A stretch of 64,000 nt of DNA from Laetmonice hystrix (GCA_965235115.1 OZ249436.1:19718001-19782000), one strand, 5' to 3'; shown: positions 37,722 to 48,327, numbered from the stretch's first letter. The notes: generated by a model not told the origin, from the letters alone. Made by a program: numbers and translations.

Positions 37722-37812
37722 CTGTACAGGTGGTAATAGATAGAGGTACTGTATGAGTTACATCATATGGCACATATGAAGTATCGCGAGGCCATATTGT
37801 TAACATTCGTTA

Positions 37813-37859
37813 ACATGCCCCGCCATTTAGACAGGGATCAGGTGAGCACTCGTCAATAT
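37813..37859 (-). pseudogene. Half EGF exon DIDECSPDPCLNGGAC followed directly by TAA
   Basis: Intact acceptor; truncated at a duplication junction. Confidence 0.8.
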
Positions 37860-37899
37860 CTGTACAGGTGGTAAATTAATTCTATGAGTTACAGCTTAA

Positions 37900-40353: not shown

Positions 40354-40397
40354 TGTTCCTCCATTCTGGCAAGGCATGTGATTACATTCGTCAATAT
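40354..40397 (-). pseudogene. Half EGF exon DIDECNHMPCQNGGT, then non-EGF sequence and a stop
   Basis: ttacag acceptor; its upstream intron resembles that of the 34930 exon. Confidence 0.8.
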
Positions 40398-41535: not shown

Positions 41536-42207
41536 GCATGAACAAGCTTGTTCCTACCTACAATCCTGTGATGGTCTGATCTTTAATAAAGAAATAATCA
41601 ACTGAAATGTAGCTAGACATTCTCCCCCTGGCTTCGTCTGCTTGTCTGCCCTACTTGTCCACAAATCGTTATGTGGCCGCCAGGCGGAACGAACCACGCA
41701 GATTCCCGGCCAGAGGGCCGCTATCCAAGTACCGCCGCGATTCCACTTTTACCAGAAACATGCCCATGATGGCGACAGATTCATTGACGATTTCAGAGAG
41801 GGTTGCAAACGATAGCTGCACACAAACTCTGTATTTGTTAACATGCCCCAATAAAGGTGTCAAGAGACAGAAAAAGGTGTCTGCTGTCACCGGCAAGAGT
41901 ACACAGTCAGTAGTGTGATAGTGAGTGAGTGAGAGTCCCATGAAGCCCGTAGGGGGTAATGCGTCTGAAAATAGCGAATGACCCATACGGTATTGTTAAA
42001 AGTCGCCTTAGGCAGTGTTCCACTTATCGGCGCGACCTTAGACATTTCACATGGTGTTACTGGTGTTCAAAGATACGTTAGTGAGGAACTTTGCCTGCCT
42101 CTTTAACTCAGTCACAATTTTATAGTCTTTTCTCCTTTTTAAACATGAAAAGGCCCTTAATTCCCGTACTGCACCCAGCTCTTAAATCGCAGATACTGTT
42201 GTGATAT

Positions 42208-42670
42208 GGGTCATTCCACGTCAAATCGACAAATATTCAGAAAAATCCCCGGGTGAACCCCTTAGAATTCAAACATTTTTTGCATACATGTGCTACAACA
42301 AATATTAGGAACCCCTGCAAACTTTTAGGGCAAAATACCCAATAGTTTTGAAGATGTGACCCTTTAAACATGCCGGGGGGGGTGCGAATTTCGTGCGCTT
42401 TTTTTCGCGTGTTATTTTTCATGTCATGTTCAAGTCCCTATAACCTTTGATCCAGAATCTTTTAATTCATTAACTATTGATTGATATCTCCTGATAGCAG
42501 CCTGTGAGATGAACCAATCCTGAAAATTTCAGAACTCTACTTCTTCTGGATCAAAAGTTATAGGGACTTGAACATGACATGAAAAATAACACGCAAAGAA
42601 AAGCTTGCGAAATTTGCAACCCCCCCCCCCCCCCGGCATGTTTAAAAGGTCATATCTTCAAAACTATTGG
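42208..42670. mobile_element. Truncated foldback MITE with a GGGTCATTCCA terminus
   Basis: Terminus at 42208; inverted arms at about 42338-42460 and 42544-42670. Confidence 0.7.
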
Positions 42671-42810
42671 ATATATTGTGACTAAATCTGTTCTGCTAAC
42701 CTAACCTTACTAATATATTTAATTATGAAGACATACTTCTTCTATCAGAGTACAACGTACTTGATTATTGTCGAGTAAGTAGATGGTGTAGATACGACAT
42801 ATCGACCTAC

Positions 42811-42924
42811 CTGTTTCACAATTCGTTCCCGTGTATCCGTCAGCACAGTTACAATTCGCCGTATCTATTCCGTCTACACACGTACCCCCATTCATACACA
42901 CGACTGCTACACAGTCGTCAATGT
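42811..42924 (-). CDS. EGF exon [38 protein letters not shown]
   Basis: ccacag/GTAGGT flanks, 114 nt. Confidence 0.92.
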
Positions 42925-43221
42925 CTGTGGAAAGATGAATAAAAAGGTACATATAGATATGACCAAAGTACATATAGATGGTGGAATTATGGTGACGTGG
43001 GGACTGTCCCTATCACTTTATTCAACTTTAAGGGCCTATCCTAGAATTATTGTTGCCATTTGTAGATCTTTAATATTGCTATAATTATCTATGCCTAGTC
43101 CTAGATCATGTTCCATTGCGCACCTAACGCTAAGCCCCACCGCATCCAATATGAGCCTATTATTTCTTCCGCCGCCATTGCAGTGTTAACTGAAGTTAAC
43201 CACTTGACGCTTATAGCATTG

Positions 43222-45297
43222 ACCCATGCAGTCACAACTGACCCAAGACGTCATTACTCTTACTCGTATCACAGAGTGTCCCAGTAAATCCACCCATACA
43301 GTCACAACTGACCCAAGACGTCATTACTCTTACTCGTTTCACAGATTGTCCCAGTAAATCCACCCATGCAGTCACTACTGACCCAAGACGTCATTACTCT
43401 TACTCGTATCACAGAGTGTCCCAGTAAATCCACCCATACAGTCACAACTGACCCAAGACGTCATTACTCTTACTCGTTTCACAGATTGTCTCAGTAAATC
43501 CACCCAAACAGTCACAACTGACCCAAGACGTCATTACTCTTACTCGTATCACAGAGTGTCCCAGTAAATCCACCCATGCAGTCACTACAGACCCAAGACG
43601 TCATTACTCTTACTCGTATCACAGAGTGTCCCAGTAAATCCATCCATACAGTCACTACTGACCCAAGACGTCATTACTCTTACTCGTTTCACAGATTGTC
43701 CCAGTAAATCCACCCATGCAGTCACTACAGACCCAAGACGTCATTACTCTTACTCGTATCACAGAGTGTCCCAGTGAATCCACCCATGCAGTCACTACTG
43801 ACCCAAGACGTCATTACTCTTACTCGTTTCACAGATTGTCCCAGTAAATCCACCCAAACAGTCACAACTGACCCAAGACGTCATTACTCTTACTCGTATC
43901 ACAGAGTGTCCCAGTAAATCCACCCATGCAGTCACTACTGACCCAAGACGTCATTACTCTTACTCGTATCACAGAGTGTCCCAGTAAATCCACCCAAACA
44001 GTCACTACTGACCCAAGACGTCATTACTCTTACTCGTATCACAGAGTGTCCCAATAAATCCATCCATACAGTCACTACTGACCCAAGACGTCATTACTCT
44101 TACTCGTATCACAGATTGTCTCAGTAAATCCACCCATACAGTCACAACTGACCCAAGACGTCATTACTCTTACTCGTATCACAGAGTGTCCCAGTAAATC
44201 CACCCATACAGTCACTACTGACCCAAGACGTCATTACTCTTACTCGTATCACAGAGTGTCCCAGTAAATCCACCCATGCAGTCACTACTGACCCAAGACG
44301 TCATTACTCTTACTCGTATCACAGAGTGTCCCAGTAAATCCACCCAAACAGTCACAACTGACCCAAGACGTCATTACTCTTACTCGTATCACAGAGTGTC
44401 CCAGTAAATCCACCCAAACAGTCACAACTGACCCAAGACGTCATTACTCTTACTCGTATCACAGAGTGTCCCAGTAAATCCACGCAAACAGTCACAACTG
44501 ACCCAAGACGTCATTACTCTTACTCGTATCACAGATTGTCCCAGTAAATCCACCCATACAGTCACTACTGACCCAAGACGTCATTACTCTTACTCGTATC
44601 ACAGAGTGTCCCAGTAAATCCACCCATACAGTCACTACTGACCCAAGACGTCATTACTCTTACTCGTATCACAGATTGTCCCAGTAAATCCACCCAAACA
44701 GTCACTACTGGCCCAAGACGTCATTACTCTTACTCGTATCACAGATTGTCCCAGTAAATCCACCCATGCAGTCACTACTGACCCAAGACGTCATTACTCT
44801 TACTCGTATCACAGAGTGTCCCAGTAAATCCACCCATGCAGTCACTACTGACCCAAGACGTCATTACTCTTACTCGTATCACAGATTGTCTCAGTAAATC
44901 CACCCATACAGTCACTACTGACCCAAGACGTCATTACTCTTACTCGTATCACAGATTGTCTCAGTAAATCCACCCATACAGTCACTACTGACCCAAGACG
45001 TCATTACTCTTACTCGTATCACAGATTGTCCCAGTAAATCCACCCATGTACAGTCACAACTGACCCAAGACGTCATTACTCTTACTCGTATCACAGAGTG
45101 TCCTAGTAAATCCACCCATGTACAGTCACAACTGACCCAAGACGTCATTACTCTTACTCGTATCACAGAGTGTCCCAGTAAATCCACCCATACAGTCACT
45201 ACTGACCCAAGACGTCATTACTCTTACTCGTTTCACAGATTGTCCCAGTAAATCCACCCATACAGTCACAACTGACCCAAGACGTCATTACTCTTAC
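43222..45297 (-). repeat. 70-bp tandem array, about 30 copies; each unit is the 3' half of an EGF exon plus a splice donor
   Basis: Minus-strand unit GTAAGAGTAATGACGTCTTGGGTCAG TTGTGACTGTATGGGTGGATTTACTGGGACAATCTGTGAAACGA, encoding [14 protein letters not shown]. Confidence 0.95.
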
Positions 45298-45414
45298 TTG
45301 TTTCACACATCGTCCCTGTAAATCCGGTCACGCAGTCACACATGAAACTGTTGAATGCAGGTGTTGTACATGTCCCGCTATTATTACAGGGAGTAGATGA
45401 GCACTCGTCAAAAT
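45298..45414 (-). CDS. EGF exon [39 protein letters not shown]
   Basis: ttacag/GTAAG flanks, 117 nt. Confidence 0.92.
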
Positions 45415-46605
45415 CTGTAAATATGGCAACCAGAATAATTCATTCAACTTATGGTCAACATTTAAATGACTATATTTTCCCTACTTTAAAAGTGTCAAAT
45501 TTCACCCTCAGAAGGCACGATTTGATGCCGATTCTGGAGGGAGTATGCCCCTAGACCACCGGAAGAGTTGTCTTCGCCTCGTCTGGTTACGGCCTTGACT
45601 TATCGTGAAAAGGGTCGAGTGAAATGATCGCTTTTAACTCCAGAGGATCCATAGGCCTAATTTCCCAAAGCTTCAAATTATCGTTTGATAAATTTTGAGA
45701 GAGAGGCATATTTGAATTGCTCTTCTTGATTTTTCGCGTTTCTCGGGGGCACTGGTGGCGCCGCCTATCATGGGAAGAGGTTCCACCTTACACACCCAGC
45801 CTCAGATAACCAAGTCGGGGGGGGGGGGGGGTCACAACATACTCCCCCCATCCCTCCCCGTCACCCCCACAATACTTGCTATCAGAATAATGACGGATTT
45901 ATCGCTGTATTTCTTTACGTACTATCATTCCACATTTAACACCCGCACACAAACAGCATCGAGACGTTATCCAGTGTTTATAATCGACCTGTTTGACTCA
46001 TTGTTTAAAATCTGGGGGTGGTTTCATTTAAAAAAAAAACATATCTGAAGAGTTCAAATAGAGTGCCGTTGGGTTTAAGAAATACCCGGGTTCGAACGGG
46101 GGACAATTTTAAGGCAGGTTGTACATCTATAACGGTTGTCCACTTTTCCTTTTGCAATTTCTTCCTGGTGTACGAAGTGAAGATGACAAAATGTGTGTAT
46201 TCAGCAAAACAAATCATGCAGAGGGAAAATATTCACCATCTCTAATTTCATATATTTCTATTTTTTAGAATTGAAGACGCGTCACAGCGAACGCACACTA
46301 ATAACGCACAAGTGCGTTATTAGCGAACGATGAAGATAGCGATCGTTGCGTTAAAGTGTTTCACAAGCATTTGCGTAATTGTCCCCGGACTCCCTTACTT
46401 TTCAATTTAAGTATCCACATTACGTATTTTCGTAGAATTGCCACCTTTATATTTCACAATGGGAAATTAGCGCAGACCCTTATAGGTGCGCGTTAATTAA
46501 ACGATTTTAGAGCCAGACAACGCGCGCTATGAACGCATAGTGCGTTGCGTTATTTGCGTATCTGCGTTAATAACGCAGCTGCGTTATTAGTTATGAAACG
46601 AGGCC

Positions 46606-47340
46606 CTGTATCGCATAACACGCCTCCGTATCCTGCGACACACTGGCATGAAAACCCGTTAACCGCGTCCATACAGGCGCCACCATTCTGACAGATGTAG
46701 AATTTGCGTGGGCGGGTGAGCGTGAGGGAGAGCGTGAGGGAAAGCGTGAGGGAGTGAGGGAGAGCGTGAGGGAGAGCGTGGGGGAGTGAGGGAGAGCGTG
46801 AGGGAGAGCGTGAGGGAGAGCGTGAGGGAGAGCGTGAGGGAGAGCGTGAGGGAGAGCGTGAGGGAGAGCGTGAGGGAGAGCGTGTGGGAGAGCGTGACGG
46901 AGAGCGTGACGGAGAGCGTGACGGGGAGCGTGACGGAGAGCGTGACGGAGAGCGTGAGGGAGAGCGTGAGGGAGAGCGTGGGGGAGAGCGTGAGGAAGAG
47001 CGTGAGGGAGAGCGTGAGGGAGAGCGTGACGGAGAGCGTGAGGGAGAGCGTGAGGGAGAGCGTGACGGAGAGCGTGACGGAGAGCGTGACGGAGAGCGTG
47101 ACGGGGAGCGTGACGGAGAGCGTGACGGAGAGCGTGACGGAGAGCGTGAAGGAGAGCGTGGGGGAGAGCGTGAGGGAGAGCGTGTGGGAGAGCGTGTGGG
47201 AAAGCGTGACGGAGAGCGTGAGGGAGAGCGTGAGGGAGCGCGTGACGGAGAGCGTGACGGAGAGCGTGACGGAGAGCGTGACGGGGAGCGTGACGGAGAG
47301 CGTGACGGAGAGTAAGAACTGATGCAATTATGTAGACATC
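46606..47340 (-). pseudogene. EGF exon interrupted in frame by a 12-bp repeat; donor site lost
   Basis: Reads HNC-ISSY-(SPSR)n-...[30 protein letters not shown], followed by GG rather than GT. Confidence 0.7.
46716..47312. repeat. 12-bp minisatellite gagagcgtga(c/g)g, about 50 copies
   Basis: Direct periodicity. Confidence 0.95.
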
Positions 47341-47743
47341 CTGTTCTACTAATATTTGTGTGCCCTTTATTATTCGGTGCGAATCCGTGCATAGAACATT
47401 GTTAAAGTAGCGTTCAGAGGAGGAAGATGATAACATAACGATATGGGATGAAAATGATGACGATGGCGGATAAGATGATGATGGGACGAAAAAGAAAAGG
47501 CAGAGGAAGAAGAAACAAATAAAGTGAAAGAAGAAGAAGCTGAGCAAAAAGTAAAAGATGAAGGGGAAGGAAAAAATGAAGGAGAAGGATGACATGATGG
47601 CAATGATGGCGATGATGATGAAGAAGACGGAGGAGAAAGAGACGAAGGGGTAGGAGAAGCTAAAGAAGCAGAAAAAATGTCAGTCAGAGTGATTAAGACG
47701 AATTGTGTATCCCCTCAAACTGTCCTTTCGATTCGTCACCTAC

Positions 47744-47842
47744 TTGTTTGACAGAGATTGCACGTGAATCCTGGCGGACCGTCACATGAGAAACTTGCGA
47801 TTACTACTGCAGTTCTAACTGCATCGCGAATACATTATTAAT
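47744..47842 (-). pseudogene. Decayed EGF exon (99 nt; TAA TAA near the start; ends FSCDGPPGFTCNLCQT|GTAG)
   Basis: AG/GT retained but with in-frame stops and Cys changes; second copy at 57022-57120. Confidence 0.7.
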
Positions 47843-47900
47843 CTGATGACAATGTAAGAAGATGTAAGTGACTAGAAGTAATGATTTCTAAACCACCCAC

Positions 47901-48014
47901 CTGTTTCGCAGATGTCGCCAGTATAGCCGGCGACACATTGGCAGGTATACATGTTGACTTCATCCATACACGTACCACCATTAGTACACGGCATGGACAG
48001 ACACTCATCAATGT
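47901..48014 (-). CDS. EGF exon [38 protein letters not shown]
   Basis: ttttag/GTGGGT flanks, 114 nt. Confidence 0.92.
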
Positions 48015-48327
48015 CTAAAAATGGTAAAAGGATTTGTTCCTTATAATGGTTGACCCCGGGCTTTAACTTGCAATAGGATTATAAGTCATCTACACAAGCA
48101 TTGCACTAAGCATTAACTACAATCAGGTGTGTCCTCATGCTACGAAGAGATTGTCTTCTAGAATATACGGATAGCCACTTTCAACCGGGCTACCTACTAT
48201 CGACTATATGTATAGTATAGACATAGGCATAGACACCAAGAATTGGAAGTCACCACAGTCAATGTCTTCTGACATTGGGAAATACACCTATATCGGTCTA
48301 ATAATACATGCGGGGGTTGAATAGCTT

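What the first reader, a model, noticed from the sequence alone, without database searches (positions are those of the whole stretch)
43222..45414. A satellite made from an exon-intron junction: about 30 tandem half-EGF exons, each with its own splice donor
Seen: on the gene's strand each 70-bp unit is 26 nt of intron (GTAAG...CAG) plus 44 nt reading [10 protein letters not shown](I/L)-C-(E/D)-T. That is EGF Cys4 to Cys6 ending at a phase-1 GTAAG donor, and the array starts exactly at the donor of the real exon at 45298. Most differences from that exon are at third codon positions (TGC/TGT, ACA/ACT, ACG/ACA, ACA/ACG). Inference: the unit came from a paralogous, formerly selected exon rather than from this one. 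The intron now holds about 30 competing 5' splice sites. Neither 70 nor 44 is a multiple of 3, so using them would mostly frameshift; the array could act as a copy-number-dependent splicing or NMD modulator, or be neutral.
Basis: partly seen in the sequence, partly recalled or inferred. Interest (0 to 1): 0.8.

Follow-up and report, generated by a model that had tools for sequence, protein, structure and literature searches.

The report
Splice-junction minisatellite in an EGF gene
An intron of a many-EGF-domain animal gene is filled with 29 tandem copies of half an exon plus its splice signal, a curiosity already known from human factor VII and from amphioxus "mirages", and most likely harmless.

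Summary
On the minus strand, the EGF exon at 45414-45298 is followed by 29 full units and a 42-nt stump, down to 43222. Of the 29 units, 27 are 70 nt and 2 are 72 nt. Each unit is 26 nt of intron start followed by 44 nt of EGF Cys4-to-Cys6. The word GTAAGAGTAATGACGTC occurs 30 times: one real donor and 29 pseudo-donors.

The unit is locus-specific. Whole-genome searches find it only here and as one decayed copy at the same intron position in a paralogous EGF gene about 19.6 Mb away. The founding copy is therefore older than the paralogue split, while the amplification (units 95.8% alike) is recent.

The proposed splicing or NMD role could not be tested, because no RNA run was listed. Any pseudo-donor use would meet a stop codon 10-11 codons past the exon end.

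This is a known kind. In human F7 intron 7, LMNB2 and PDGF, and in amphioxus "mirages", such copies are reported to leave splicing unaffected. Verdict: a new member of a known kind, probably near-neutral, of modest interest. The same gene family holds several more splice-junction arrays and dead half-exons.

The parts
45298..45414 (-). Authentic EGF exon (117 nt, phase 1 at both ends; [38 protein letters not shown]). Its last 44 nt act as the diverged 'zeroth' copy of the array.
   Evidence: Read. Pfam EGF PF00008, E 1.9e-08. 85.6% identical to the paralogous exon in L013. Last 44 nt match the commonest unit (my reference string) at 32/44; last 43 nt differ from the first unit at 9 positions.
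45272..45297 (-). Authentic 5' splice site CAA|GTAAGAG and the first 26 nt of the intron. Identical to the intron part of the array units.
   Evidence: 26/26 identity to the unit; sequence read.
43264..45271 (-). 29 half-EGF pieces of 44 nt (2 of 46), separated by 28 copies of the 26-nt intron part. The 29th pseudo-donor (G at 43263) opens the stump listed next, so each piece is followed by a pseudo-donor CGA|GTAAGAG.
   Evidence: Mean pairwise unit identity 95.8%. Minor-allele cells 3 of 754 in the intron part and 53 of 1276 in the exon part. No higher-order period.
43222..43263 (-). Terminal stump: 26-nt intron part plus TTGTGACTGCATGGGT, joined to unique intron at a shared TGGGT word.
   Evidence: The deletion or misaligned exchange at TGGGT is my inference from the sequence.
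42925..43221 (-). Unique remainder of the intron (297 nt), with a pyrimidine-rich tract and acceptor CAG.
   Evidence: Homologous stretches found only at two paralogous loci on the same contig. The first 40 nt match the paralogue's intron at 33/40.
42811..42924 (-). Next EGF exon (N-I-D-D-C-V-A-V-V-C-M-N-G-G-T-C-...).
   Evidence: Pfam EGF, E 6.5e-08.
46604..46696 (-). Context: a dead, decapitated EGF exon in the upstream intron. This shows that half-exons are left behind in this gene.
   Evidence: Alignment with the intact paralogous exon shows a deletion of about 70 nt that removes the acceptor and Cys1, and a donor GT changed to GG. ORF listing.

Best explanation
This is a splice-junction minisatellite: the 'mirage' of amphioxus genes, or the type seen in human F7 intron 7. 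It lies inside a 2373-nt intron of a multi-EGF gene.

**Step 1 (shown).** Before the gene family's paralogues split, one extra copy of 'EGF Cys4-to-Cys6 plus GTAAG donor' already lay 26 nt behind the real donor. A decayed copy with the same unit-specific bases sits at the same place in the paralogue.

**Step 2 (inferred, about 55%).** That extra copy was the 3' half of a neighbouring EGF exon that lost its 5' half and acceptor by deletion, rather than a slipped copy of the present exon.

**Step 3 (inferred from 95.8% unit identity against about 78-83% between the paralogous introns).** Unequal exchange or replication slippage between the two 26-nt donor-bearing repeats recently expanded the pair to 29 units, at this locus only.

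**Step 4 (inferred from published precedent, not tested here).** The spliceosome uses the first, authentic donor, and the whole array leaves with the intron. Rare use of a pseudo-donor would add 70n nt and meet TGA or TAG 10-11 codons past the exon end. Such transcripts would be nonsense-mediated-decay targets. The array is therefore tolerated and close to neutral.
For: **Structure.** Array anatomy.

**Locus specificity.** A 210-nt array query hits only this array and one 52-nt stretch at C1:167120-167172. The 26-nt pattern gives 30 hits here, 2 at that relic and 0 in the control. Exon-part patterns give 27 of 27 hits in the array.

**Age of the founding copy.**
- L013 is colinear with window 47312-38880.
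- At the homologous intron it holds ...TGGGACAATCTGTAAAAACGA|GTAAAAGTAATGACGTCTTGGGTCAG, followed by flank homologous to window 43221 onward (33/40).
- The relic shares the unit-specific bases (ACT, ACA, ATC, ACG) where the real exon of the window and the homologous real exon of the paralogous locus both read ACA, ACG, ATG, ACA. The second real exon of that locus agrees at two of these codons but reads ACG (not ATG) and ATA (not ACA) at the others.

**Recent amplification.** Mean pairwise unit identity is 95.8%. Paralogous intron pieces are 78-83% identical.

**Not coding, not structured.**
- Read-through gives ...[13 protein letters not shown].
- No ORF of 110 aa or more.
- RNA fold z = -0.06.
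- No Rfam match.

**Half-exon relics in the same gene.** Decapitated exon at 46696-46604; tail-less exon near 40397-40354.

**Minisatellite-rich setting.** Tandem repeats cover 16.5% of the window.

**Precedent.**
- PMC1557585 (abstract, introduction and discussion read): in F7, LMNB2 and PDGF only the authentic donor is used.
- PMC3087553 (section 16 read): amphioxus mirages do not disturb splicing by RT-PCR.
- PMC3902484 (one passage read): reports the same for further amphioxus genes.
Against: - No RNA evidence for this gene could be obtained, so use of the first donor is an extrapolation.
- The pseudo-donors (CGA|GTAAGAG) differ from the real one (CAA|GTAAGAG) only at position -2, so they are nearly as good.
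- In two of the human precedents (IFI6, CBS) the two proximal pseudo-sites are used constitutively (PMC1557585, introduction).
- The donor-bearing 26 nt are about ten times less variable among units than the exon part (3/754 against 53/1276 cells; 0 of 26 against 6 of 44 common polymorphic columns). This could mean constraint. However, the cells are not independent, and the related 63-bp arrays show at most a twofold contrast in the same direction: 7/754 against 23/1073, 5/208 against 8/296 and 6/338 against 9/481.
- Junction-anchored arrays recur in the family more often than I would have guessed. A purely neutral account leaves this unexplained unless this genome is generally prone to them.
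Confidence: 0.75

Rival explanations
1. The 29 pseudo-donors compete with the real donor, so the array acts as a copy-number-dependent dial of productive splicing or nonsense-mediated decay.
For: - The pseudo-donors are almost identical to the real donor.
- Every pseudo-donor product would carry an early stop.
- The donor part is less variable than the exon part.
- IFI6 and CBS use proximal pseudo-sites (PMC1557585, introduction).
- A human survey links tandem-repeat length to splicing (PMC10078293; only the start of the abstract was seen, in the listing).
Against: - In F7, LMNB2, PDGF and the amphioxus Adh3, globin and TnC mirages, only the authentic site is used (PMC1557585, PMC3087553, PMC3902484).
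- The paralogue carries only one decayed copy of this unit, so a large copy number is not conserved.
- Within-array variation looks neutral.
- No expression data could be had.
Confidence: 0.1
2. Rival for origin only. The founding copy was a slipped in-situ duplicate of this same exon's junction, not a piece of a paralogous exon. Its 20% divergence from the exon is simply age.
For: - Slippage duplication is the usual birth of a minisatellite.
- The unit is no closer to any living exon than to the adjacent one: 32/44 to both 45298 and 37605.
- No other exon in the genome lies within 3 mismatches.
- Recent in-situ junction duplicates exist in the family, for example 43 of 45 identical at 37874-37830.
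Against: - A neutral copy should not keep all six EGF key residues (simulated P 0.023) with 5 of 8 changes at third positions (P 0.065; joint 0.0045). This test is post hoc.
- The three real exons compared have barely changed in the same 43 nt: each differs from their majority consensus at 1 or 2 positions. The changes therefore cannot be placed on the selected lineage.
- The junction is seamless, with a 5-nt overlap (TCAGT), if the source exon read F-S-C-D-C as exon 37721-37605 does. With the adjacent exon it has no overlap (my reading).
Confidence: 0.4
3. The array is a copy of a dispersed satellite or of a transposon-borne repeat that merely landed beside the exon.
For: Tandem repeats cover 16.5% of the window. 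A related 63-bp array occurs at three places.
Against: - Whole-genome searches place the unit only here and at the paralogue's relic.
- The three 63-bp arrays all lie in paralogous EGF-gene introns, and their unit is the first 63 nt of the same ancestral intron: 21/23 and 25/40 to the window, 44/63 to the paralogue.
Confidence: 0.02
4. The array is an assembly artefact, or its length is grossly wrong.
For: No contig of the three runs laid spans it. Those runs are one sample and may be the assembly's own source.
Against: - Contigs reach into the array from unique sequence on each side, with few differences (records at 42649-43258 and 45269-46280).
- The units carry a non-periodic pattern of variants, unlike a collapsed or looped assembly.
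Confidence: 0.03
5. The array works at the DNA level. Thirty copies of TGACGTCT, one base from the cAMP-response-element palindrome as I recall it, would form an intronic enhancer.
For: The motif lies in the nearly invariant 26-nt part.
Against: - The resemblance is recalled, not tested.
- The paralogue's 63-bp units read TAACGTCT instead.
- No chromatin or expression data were available.
Confidence: 0.04

Closest known systems
Amphioxus 'mirages': minisatellite-like tandem duplications of exon-intron boundaries in Adh3, globin, troponin C and PGBD5 genes (PMC3087553, section 16 read; PMC3902484, one passage read; the original Adh3 paper, PMC117041, is not held)
   Same: - Tandem units that include an exon end and its splice signal.
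- Unit sizes in the same range (Adh3 10-72 bp).
- Concerted evolution inside the array, with the boundary copy left out of it.
- Several such arrays in one genome, at both donor and acceptor sides.
- Reported not to disturb splicing.
   Different: - Here the exon share is large (44 of 70 nt, half an EGF domain) and there are 29 full units, against the 3-6 reported for the globin gene.
- The exon part seems to come from a different, now lost exon.
- I did not establish that this genome is a cephalochordate.
Human F7 intron 7 37-bp VNTR, and the similar arrays in IFI6 (6-16), CBS, LMNB2 and PDGF (PMC1557585; abstract, introduction and discussion read)
   Same: - The first monomer spans the exon-intron boundary.
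- The authentic donor is followed by many pseudo-donors of (nearly) the same sequence.
- The unit length is not a multiple of three.
   Different: - F7 repeats only 4 nt of exon and has 5-9 copies. Here there are 44 nt of exon and 29 full units.
- In F7 the pseudo-sites are strictly identical to the real site. Here they differ at -2.
- In F7 the silence of the pseudo-sites was shown by experiment. Here nothing is known.
Intron gain by tandem duplication across AG|GT proto-splice sites (the Rogers model, as described in PMC3087553 section 16 and PMC2812944 discussion passages)
   Same: A duplicated exon piece with its own splice signal sits in an intron and could in principle be recruited.
   Different: - Nothing suggests recruitment. 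The 44-nt pieces are out of frame with one another and carry stops.
- Eighteen of 29 have lost Cys4.
- The CAG in front of each piece has a poor pyrimidine tract (my reading).

Membership tests
Splice-junction minisatellite ('mirage' / F7 IVS7 type) | Head-to-tail tandem array with a minisatellite-sized unit | tested here: met
   Period 70, 30.0 copies, 95% matches, score 3724. Spacings are 27 of 70 nt and 2 of 72 nt.
Splice-junction minisatellite ('mirage' / F7 IVS7 type) | The first monomer spans an exon-intron boundary, so the donor sequence is reiterated in the intron | tested here: met
   The real exon's last 44 nt plus the next 26 nt align with the commonest unit at 32/44 and 26/26; against the first unit the last 43 nt differ at 9 positions. 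GTAAGAGTAATGACGTC occurs 30 times.
Splice-junction minisatellite ('mirage' / F7 IVS7 type) | Locus-specific, not a dispersed repeat | tested here: met
   Genome-wide, the 26-nt part gives 30 hits in the array, 2 at the paralogue's relic and 0 in the control. The exon part gives 27 of 27 hits in the array.
Splice-junction minisatellite ('mirage' / F7 IVS7 type) | Only the authentic (most upstream) donor is used in mature mRNA | not testable with these tools
   No RNA holder was listed for the stretch. The runs laid are DNA-like contigs.
Splice-junction minisatellite ('mirage' / F7 IVS7 type) | Copy number polymorphic among alleles or individuals | not testable with these tools
   Three runs of one sample; no contig spans the array.
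EGF-like domain (Pfam PF00008), for the repeated piece | Six cysteines with the C-x-C-x5-G-aromatic-x-G-x2-C spacing, in an open frame | tested here: not met
   The piece covers only Cys4-Cys6. Eighteen of 29 pieces read Ser for Cys4, and 2 carry a frameshifting CA insertion. The six real exons tested all match PF00008 (6 of 6).
Coding tandem repeat | An open reading frame through the array | tested here: not met
   No ORF of 110 aa or more overlaps 43222-45297 on either strand. Read-through from the exon stops after 10 further codons.
Recursive-splicing ratchet site | Juxtaposed acceptor and donor, AG|GTAAGT (definition recalled) | tested here: not met
   Each donor is preceded by CGA, not AG.
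Known structured RNA family (Rfam) | Match at gathering score | tested here: not met
   0 matches in 42000-48200 on both strands. Fold z-score -0.06.

The most novel reading that the evidence does not exclude
In this EGF gene family, splice-junction minisatellites may not be random accidents. They may be the regular afterlife of dying exons. Because each EGF exon is phase 1 at both ends, a module can be lost without breaking the frame. A half-exon left behind with its own splice site forms a short direct repeat with the neighbouring junction, and this repeat then seeds an array.

This would account for four observations:
- The selection-like divergence of the unit from the adjacent exon.
- The dead half-exons seen in the same gene.
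- The several donor-anchored arrays found in about 112 kb of three paralogous loci.
- The sharp start of the array at the real donor.

A bolder version: the nearly invariant donor-bearing 26 nt are kept because a row of U1-binding sites helps define the short upstream exon.
Probability: 0.15. Interest if true: 0.5.

Novelty: new member of a known kind. Interest (0 to 1): 0.27.

Why it matters
If the authentic donor is chosen here out of 30 near-identical sites spread over 2 kb, this would be an extreme natural test of how a spliceosome picks the first of many equivalent 5' splice sites. The published F7 case has 5-9 sites.

The paralogue relic gives an unusual dated history for such an array: the founding copy is old and the expansion is young. 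The dead half-exons nearby suggest a link between module loss in EGF-repeat genes and the birth of minisatellites.

In practice, arrays like this mislead gene predictors by offering many false donors and half-domains.

None of this changes the main point. The kind is already described and is probably neutral.

Tried and rejected
- **RNA evidence.** The look-up of sequencing runs listed no RNA holder, only three DNA-like runs from one sample and one study. Laying them gave contigs that enter the array from both sides but do not span it. I did not use the depth figures for copy number, because summed contig depth is no copy number.
- **Whole genome file.** I worked with searches and 10-kb stretches instead.
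- **Related species.** The tool states that this genome has no relatives held, so no orthologue comparison was possible.
- **Living source exon.** Exact-letter and codon-degenerate patterns with up to 3 mismatches hit only the array. Exons more than about 10% diverged would be missed.
- **Third paralogous locus (L014+L015).** It is rearranged and lacks the homologous exon, so it could not polarise the history.
- **RNA structure.** Three units fold no better than shuffles (z -0.06). No Rfam family matches.
- **Donor-part conservation as a general rule.** At most weakly seen in the 63-bp arrays: 7/754 against 23/1073, 5/208 against 8/296 and 6/338 against 9/481.
- **Higher-order periodicity or a gradient of similarity to the exon along the array.** None: identity by lag is flat at 0.953-0.964.
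- **Naming the gene by homologue search.** The single exon (38 aa) is below the tool's minimum. I did not pursue it.
- **The original 'mirage' paper (PMC117041).** Not held.
- **Earlier notes of this scan.** Nothing for this genome. Similar cases in other genomes appear.

Full report
**1. What is there**

The minus strand of the window carries a gene made of single-exon EGF modules.
- A cysteine-pattern scan finds 13 EGF modules on that strand.
- Six of six tested exons match Pfam EGF PF00008.
- The exon at 45414-45298 is bounded by ...ttacag| and |gtaagag. The next exon starts at 42924, behind a pyrimidine-rich ...ccacag|.

The 2373-nt intron between these two exons is 87% tandem repeat.
- TRF gives period 70, 30.0 copies, 95% matches and score 3724 at 43222-45325.
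- The exact word GTAAGAGTAATGACGTC occurs 30 times on the gene strand, with 27 spacings of 70 nt and 2 of 72 nt.
- Each unit is 26 nt identical to the start of the intron (GTAAGAG...GGGTCAG), followed by 44 nt that read as EGF Cys4 to Cys6 and end in phase 1 at the next GTAAGAG.

There are 29 complete pieces and a final stump that runs into unique intron at 43222.

- 18 of 29 pieces read AGT (Ser) where Cys4 should be.
- Two pieces carry a CA insertion.
- The last piece has no donor.

**2. It is not coding and not a known RNA**

- Reading on from the real exon gives ...[17 protein letters not shown].
- No ORF of 110 aa or more crosses the array on either strand.
- Three units fold no better than shuffled sequence (z -0.06).
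- Rfam gives nothing at gathering score.

**3. It is locus-specific**

The window lies at C1:19718001-19782000 of a 627-Mb assembly.
- A 210-nt query from the array hits only the array itself and one 52-nt stretch at C1:167120-167172.
- The 26-nt intron part, with up to 3 mismatches, occurs 30 times in the array and twice at that distant spot. A reversed control gives 0.
- A 30-nt exon-part pattern and a 35-place codon-degenerate pattern hit only the array, 27 of 27 each.

**4. The distant spot is a paralogous gene, and it dates the founding copy**

L013 (C1:162000-171999) is colinear with window 47312 to 38880 on the gene strand. It has the same 12-bp array, the same EGF exons (80-87% identical) and the same intron pieces (78-83%).

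Behind the exon homologous to 45414-45298 it carries three things in order:
- A different array: 63 bp x 8.2.
- One decayed copy of the present unit: CAGTTTTGAC...TGGGACAATCTGTAAAAACGA|GTAAAAGTAATGACGTCTTGGGTCAG.
- Flank that matches the window just past the array at 33/40.

The relic shares the unit-specific bases (ACT, ACA, ATC, ACG). At those places the window's real exon and the homologous real exon of the paralogous locus both read ACA, ACG, ATG, ACA. The second real exon of that locus agrees at two of these codons but reads ACG (not ATG) and ATA (not ACA) at the others.

One extra half-exon with its own donor therefore already sat behind the real donor before the two loci diverged. The units of the array are 95.8% identical on average, so the expansion to 29 units is several-fold younger.

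The 63-bp unit of the paralogue is the first 63 nt of the same ancestral intron. It matches the window at 21/23 and 25/40, and the paralogue's own intron at 44/63. It occurs at only three places in the genome, all in paralogous loci.

**5. Where the half-exon came from**

The first unit differs from the adjacent real exon at 9 of 43 positions, 6 of them third codon positions. Three further observations bear on the origin.

*The real exons have barely changed.* The three real exons compared each differ from their majority consensus at only 1 or 2 of those 43 nt. So almost all of the divergence lies on the lineage of the copy.
- Eight random substitutions in 42 nt keep all six EGF key residues in 2.3% of simulations.
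- They reach 5 third positions in 6.5% of simulations, and do both in 0.45%.
- This test is post hoc. I chose the unit nearest the exon and I defined the key residues myself.

*Present-day variation among units is unbiased.* The 11 variable columns fall 5, 3 and 3 on codon positions 1, 2 and 3.

*The junction matches a different exon.* The 5' junction of the unit, TCAGTTGTGACTG, is letter for letter the F-S-C-D-C stretch of paralogous exon 37721-37605. The adjacent exon reads F-M-C-D-C.

The same gene also shows that half-exons get left behind.
- The exon at 46696-46604 has lost its acceptor and Cys1 through a deletion of about 70 nt, and its donor is GG.
- An exon near 40397-40354 keeps only its acceptor and 5' half.

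No such exon survives within 3 mismatches anywhere in the genome. An old in-situ slip (about 40%) is not excluded.

**6. How it most likely behaves**

I could not test splicing. No RNA run was listed, and the three DNA-like runs of one sample only confirm the two edges.

The pseudo-donors read CGA|GTAAGAG and the real donor reads CAA|GTAAGAG. They differ at one position only.

Published cases of this very arrangement say what to expect.
- In human F7 intron 7 the first 37-bp monomer spans the exon-intron boundary. The 4-8 identical pseudo-sites are functional but silent, because the most upstream site wins.
- LMNB2 and PDGF behave likewise. IFI6 and CBS also use the two nearest pseudo-sites (PMC1557585; abstract, introduction and discussion read).
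- In amphioxus, minisatellite-like duplications of exon-intron boundaries, called "mirages", are reported in Adh3, globin and other genes. They occur at both donor and acceptor sides, are length-unstable and have no effect on splicing by RT-PCR (PMC3087553, section 16 read; PMC3902484, one passage read).

By analogy, the donor at 45297 is used and the array is spliced out. Occasional use of the first pseudo-sites would yield early-stop transcripts.

**7. What speaks against a purely neutral reading**

- The 26-nt donor part is much less variable than the exon part (3 of 754 against 53 of 1276 minor-allele cells). However, the cells are not independent. By columns the contrast is weak (0 of 26 against 6 of 44 common polymorphic columns). 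The 63-bp arrays show at most a twofold contrast in the same direction.
- Junction-anchored arrays recur in the family:
  - A 57-bp unit made of 14 nt of intron start plus 43 nt that match the exon end at 29/43. None of 20000 shuffles reaches that match.
  - A 65/68-bp unit made of the last 23 nt of an exon plus the intron start, with 7 further junction-spanning copies.
  - The 63-bp arrays that begin at real donors.
  - One duplicated acceptor with half an exon in the window (43 of 45 identical).

With tandem repeats covering 16.5% of the window, some overlap with junctions is expected. I did not make a genome-wide test.

**8. Verdict**

The origin inference is partly supported. The functional inference is untested and is disfavoured by precedent.

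The structure is a new, large member of a known kind. Earlier notes of this scan describe the same kind in a shark and in an annelid, with the first donor used (unchecked by me).

Its modest interest lies in three points:
- The number of sites: 30 near-identical donors.
- The dated two-step history.
- The hint that dying EGF modules seed such arrays.

Noticed in passing
window 46604-46696 (-): Dead, decapitated EGF exon. Compared with the intact paralogous exon in L013, a deletion of about 70 nt removed the acceptor and the D-x-D-E-C...P stretch, and the donor GT is GG. It directly follows the 12-bp array and is in frame with it in one ORF.
   Followed up: partly
window about 40354-40397 (-): Tail-less EGF exon relic. 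The acceptor and D-I-D-E-C-N-H-M-P-C-Q-N-G-G-T are kept, then homology to the intact exons in L013 and L014 is lost.
   Followed up: partly
window 37812-37874 (-): A 'mirage' at an acceptor. A second copy of the intron end, its AG and the first ~48 nt of exon 37721-37605 lies 138 nt upstream of the real acceptor. It is 43 of 45 identical and runs into a stop.
   Followed up: partly
L013:8358-8640 and L014:9354-9450: A 57-bp array (x3.9, 97%) right behind an EGF exon's donor. Its unit is 14 nt of intron start plus 43 nt matching the exon's Cys4-to-end at 29/43. About two decayed copies lie at the homologous place of the third locus.
   Followed up: partly
L017:167-699: A 65/68-bp array (x8, 98%). 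Its unit is the last 23 nt of EGF exon L017:76-189 plus the first 42-45 nt of its intron. Seven further junction-spanning copies were found.
   Followed up: partly
L013:4599-5113, L013:8824-9699, L014:9465 to L015:1350: A 63-bp satellite found at only these three places in the genome, about 97% alike between places. Two copies start at real donors of paralogous EGF exons. The unit is the first 63 nt of the ancestral intron.
   Followed up: partly
window 46714-47312; L016:6015 to L013:968: A 12-bp array (GGGAGAGCGTGA on the + strand) at the same intron position in both paralogues. It has 50.6 copies in the window and about 417 in the paralogue, and reads S-P-S-R in one frame.
   Followed up: no
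whole window: Tandem repeats with TRF score 100 or more cover 10594 of 64000 bases (16.5%). Many are minisatellites of 22-70 bp in introns of the EGF gene.
   Followed up: no
window 42758-42925: In all three runs laid, a short contig (171-245 nt) covers the exon 42924-42811 with 14 differences, at a depth like that of the matching contig. It may be a diverged allele or a close paralogue.
   Followed up: no
L013:6961-7012: An interstitial run of (AGGGTT) x8.8, telomere-like, inside the paralogue's homologous intron about 169 kb from the contig start.
   Followed up: no
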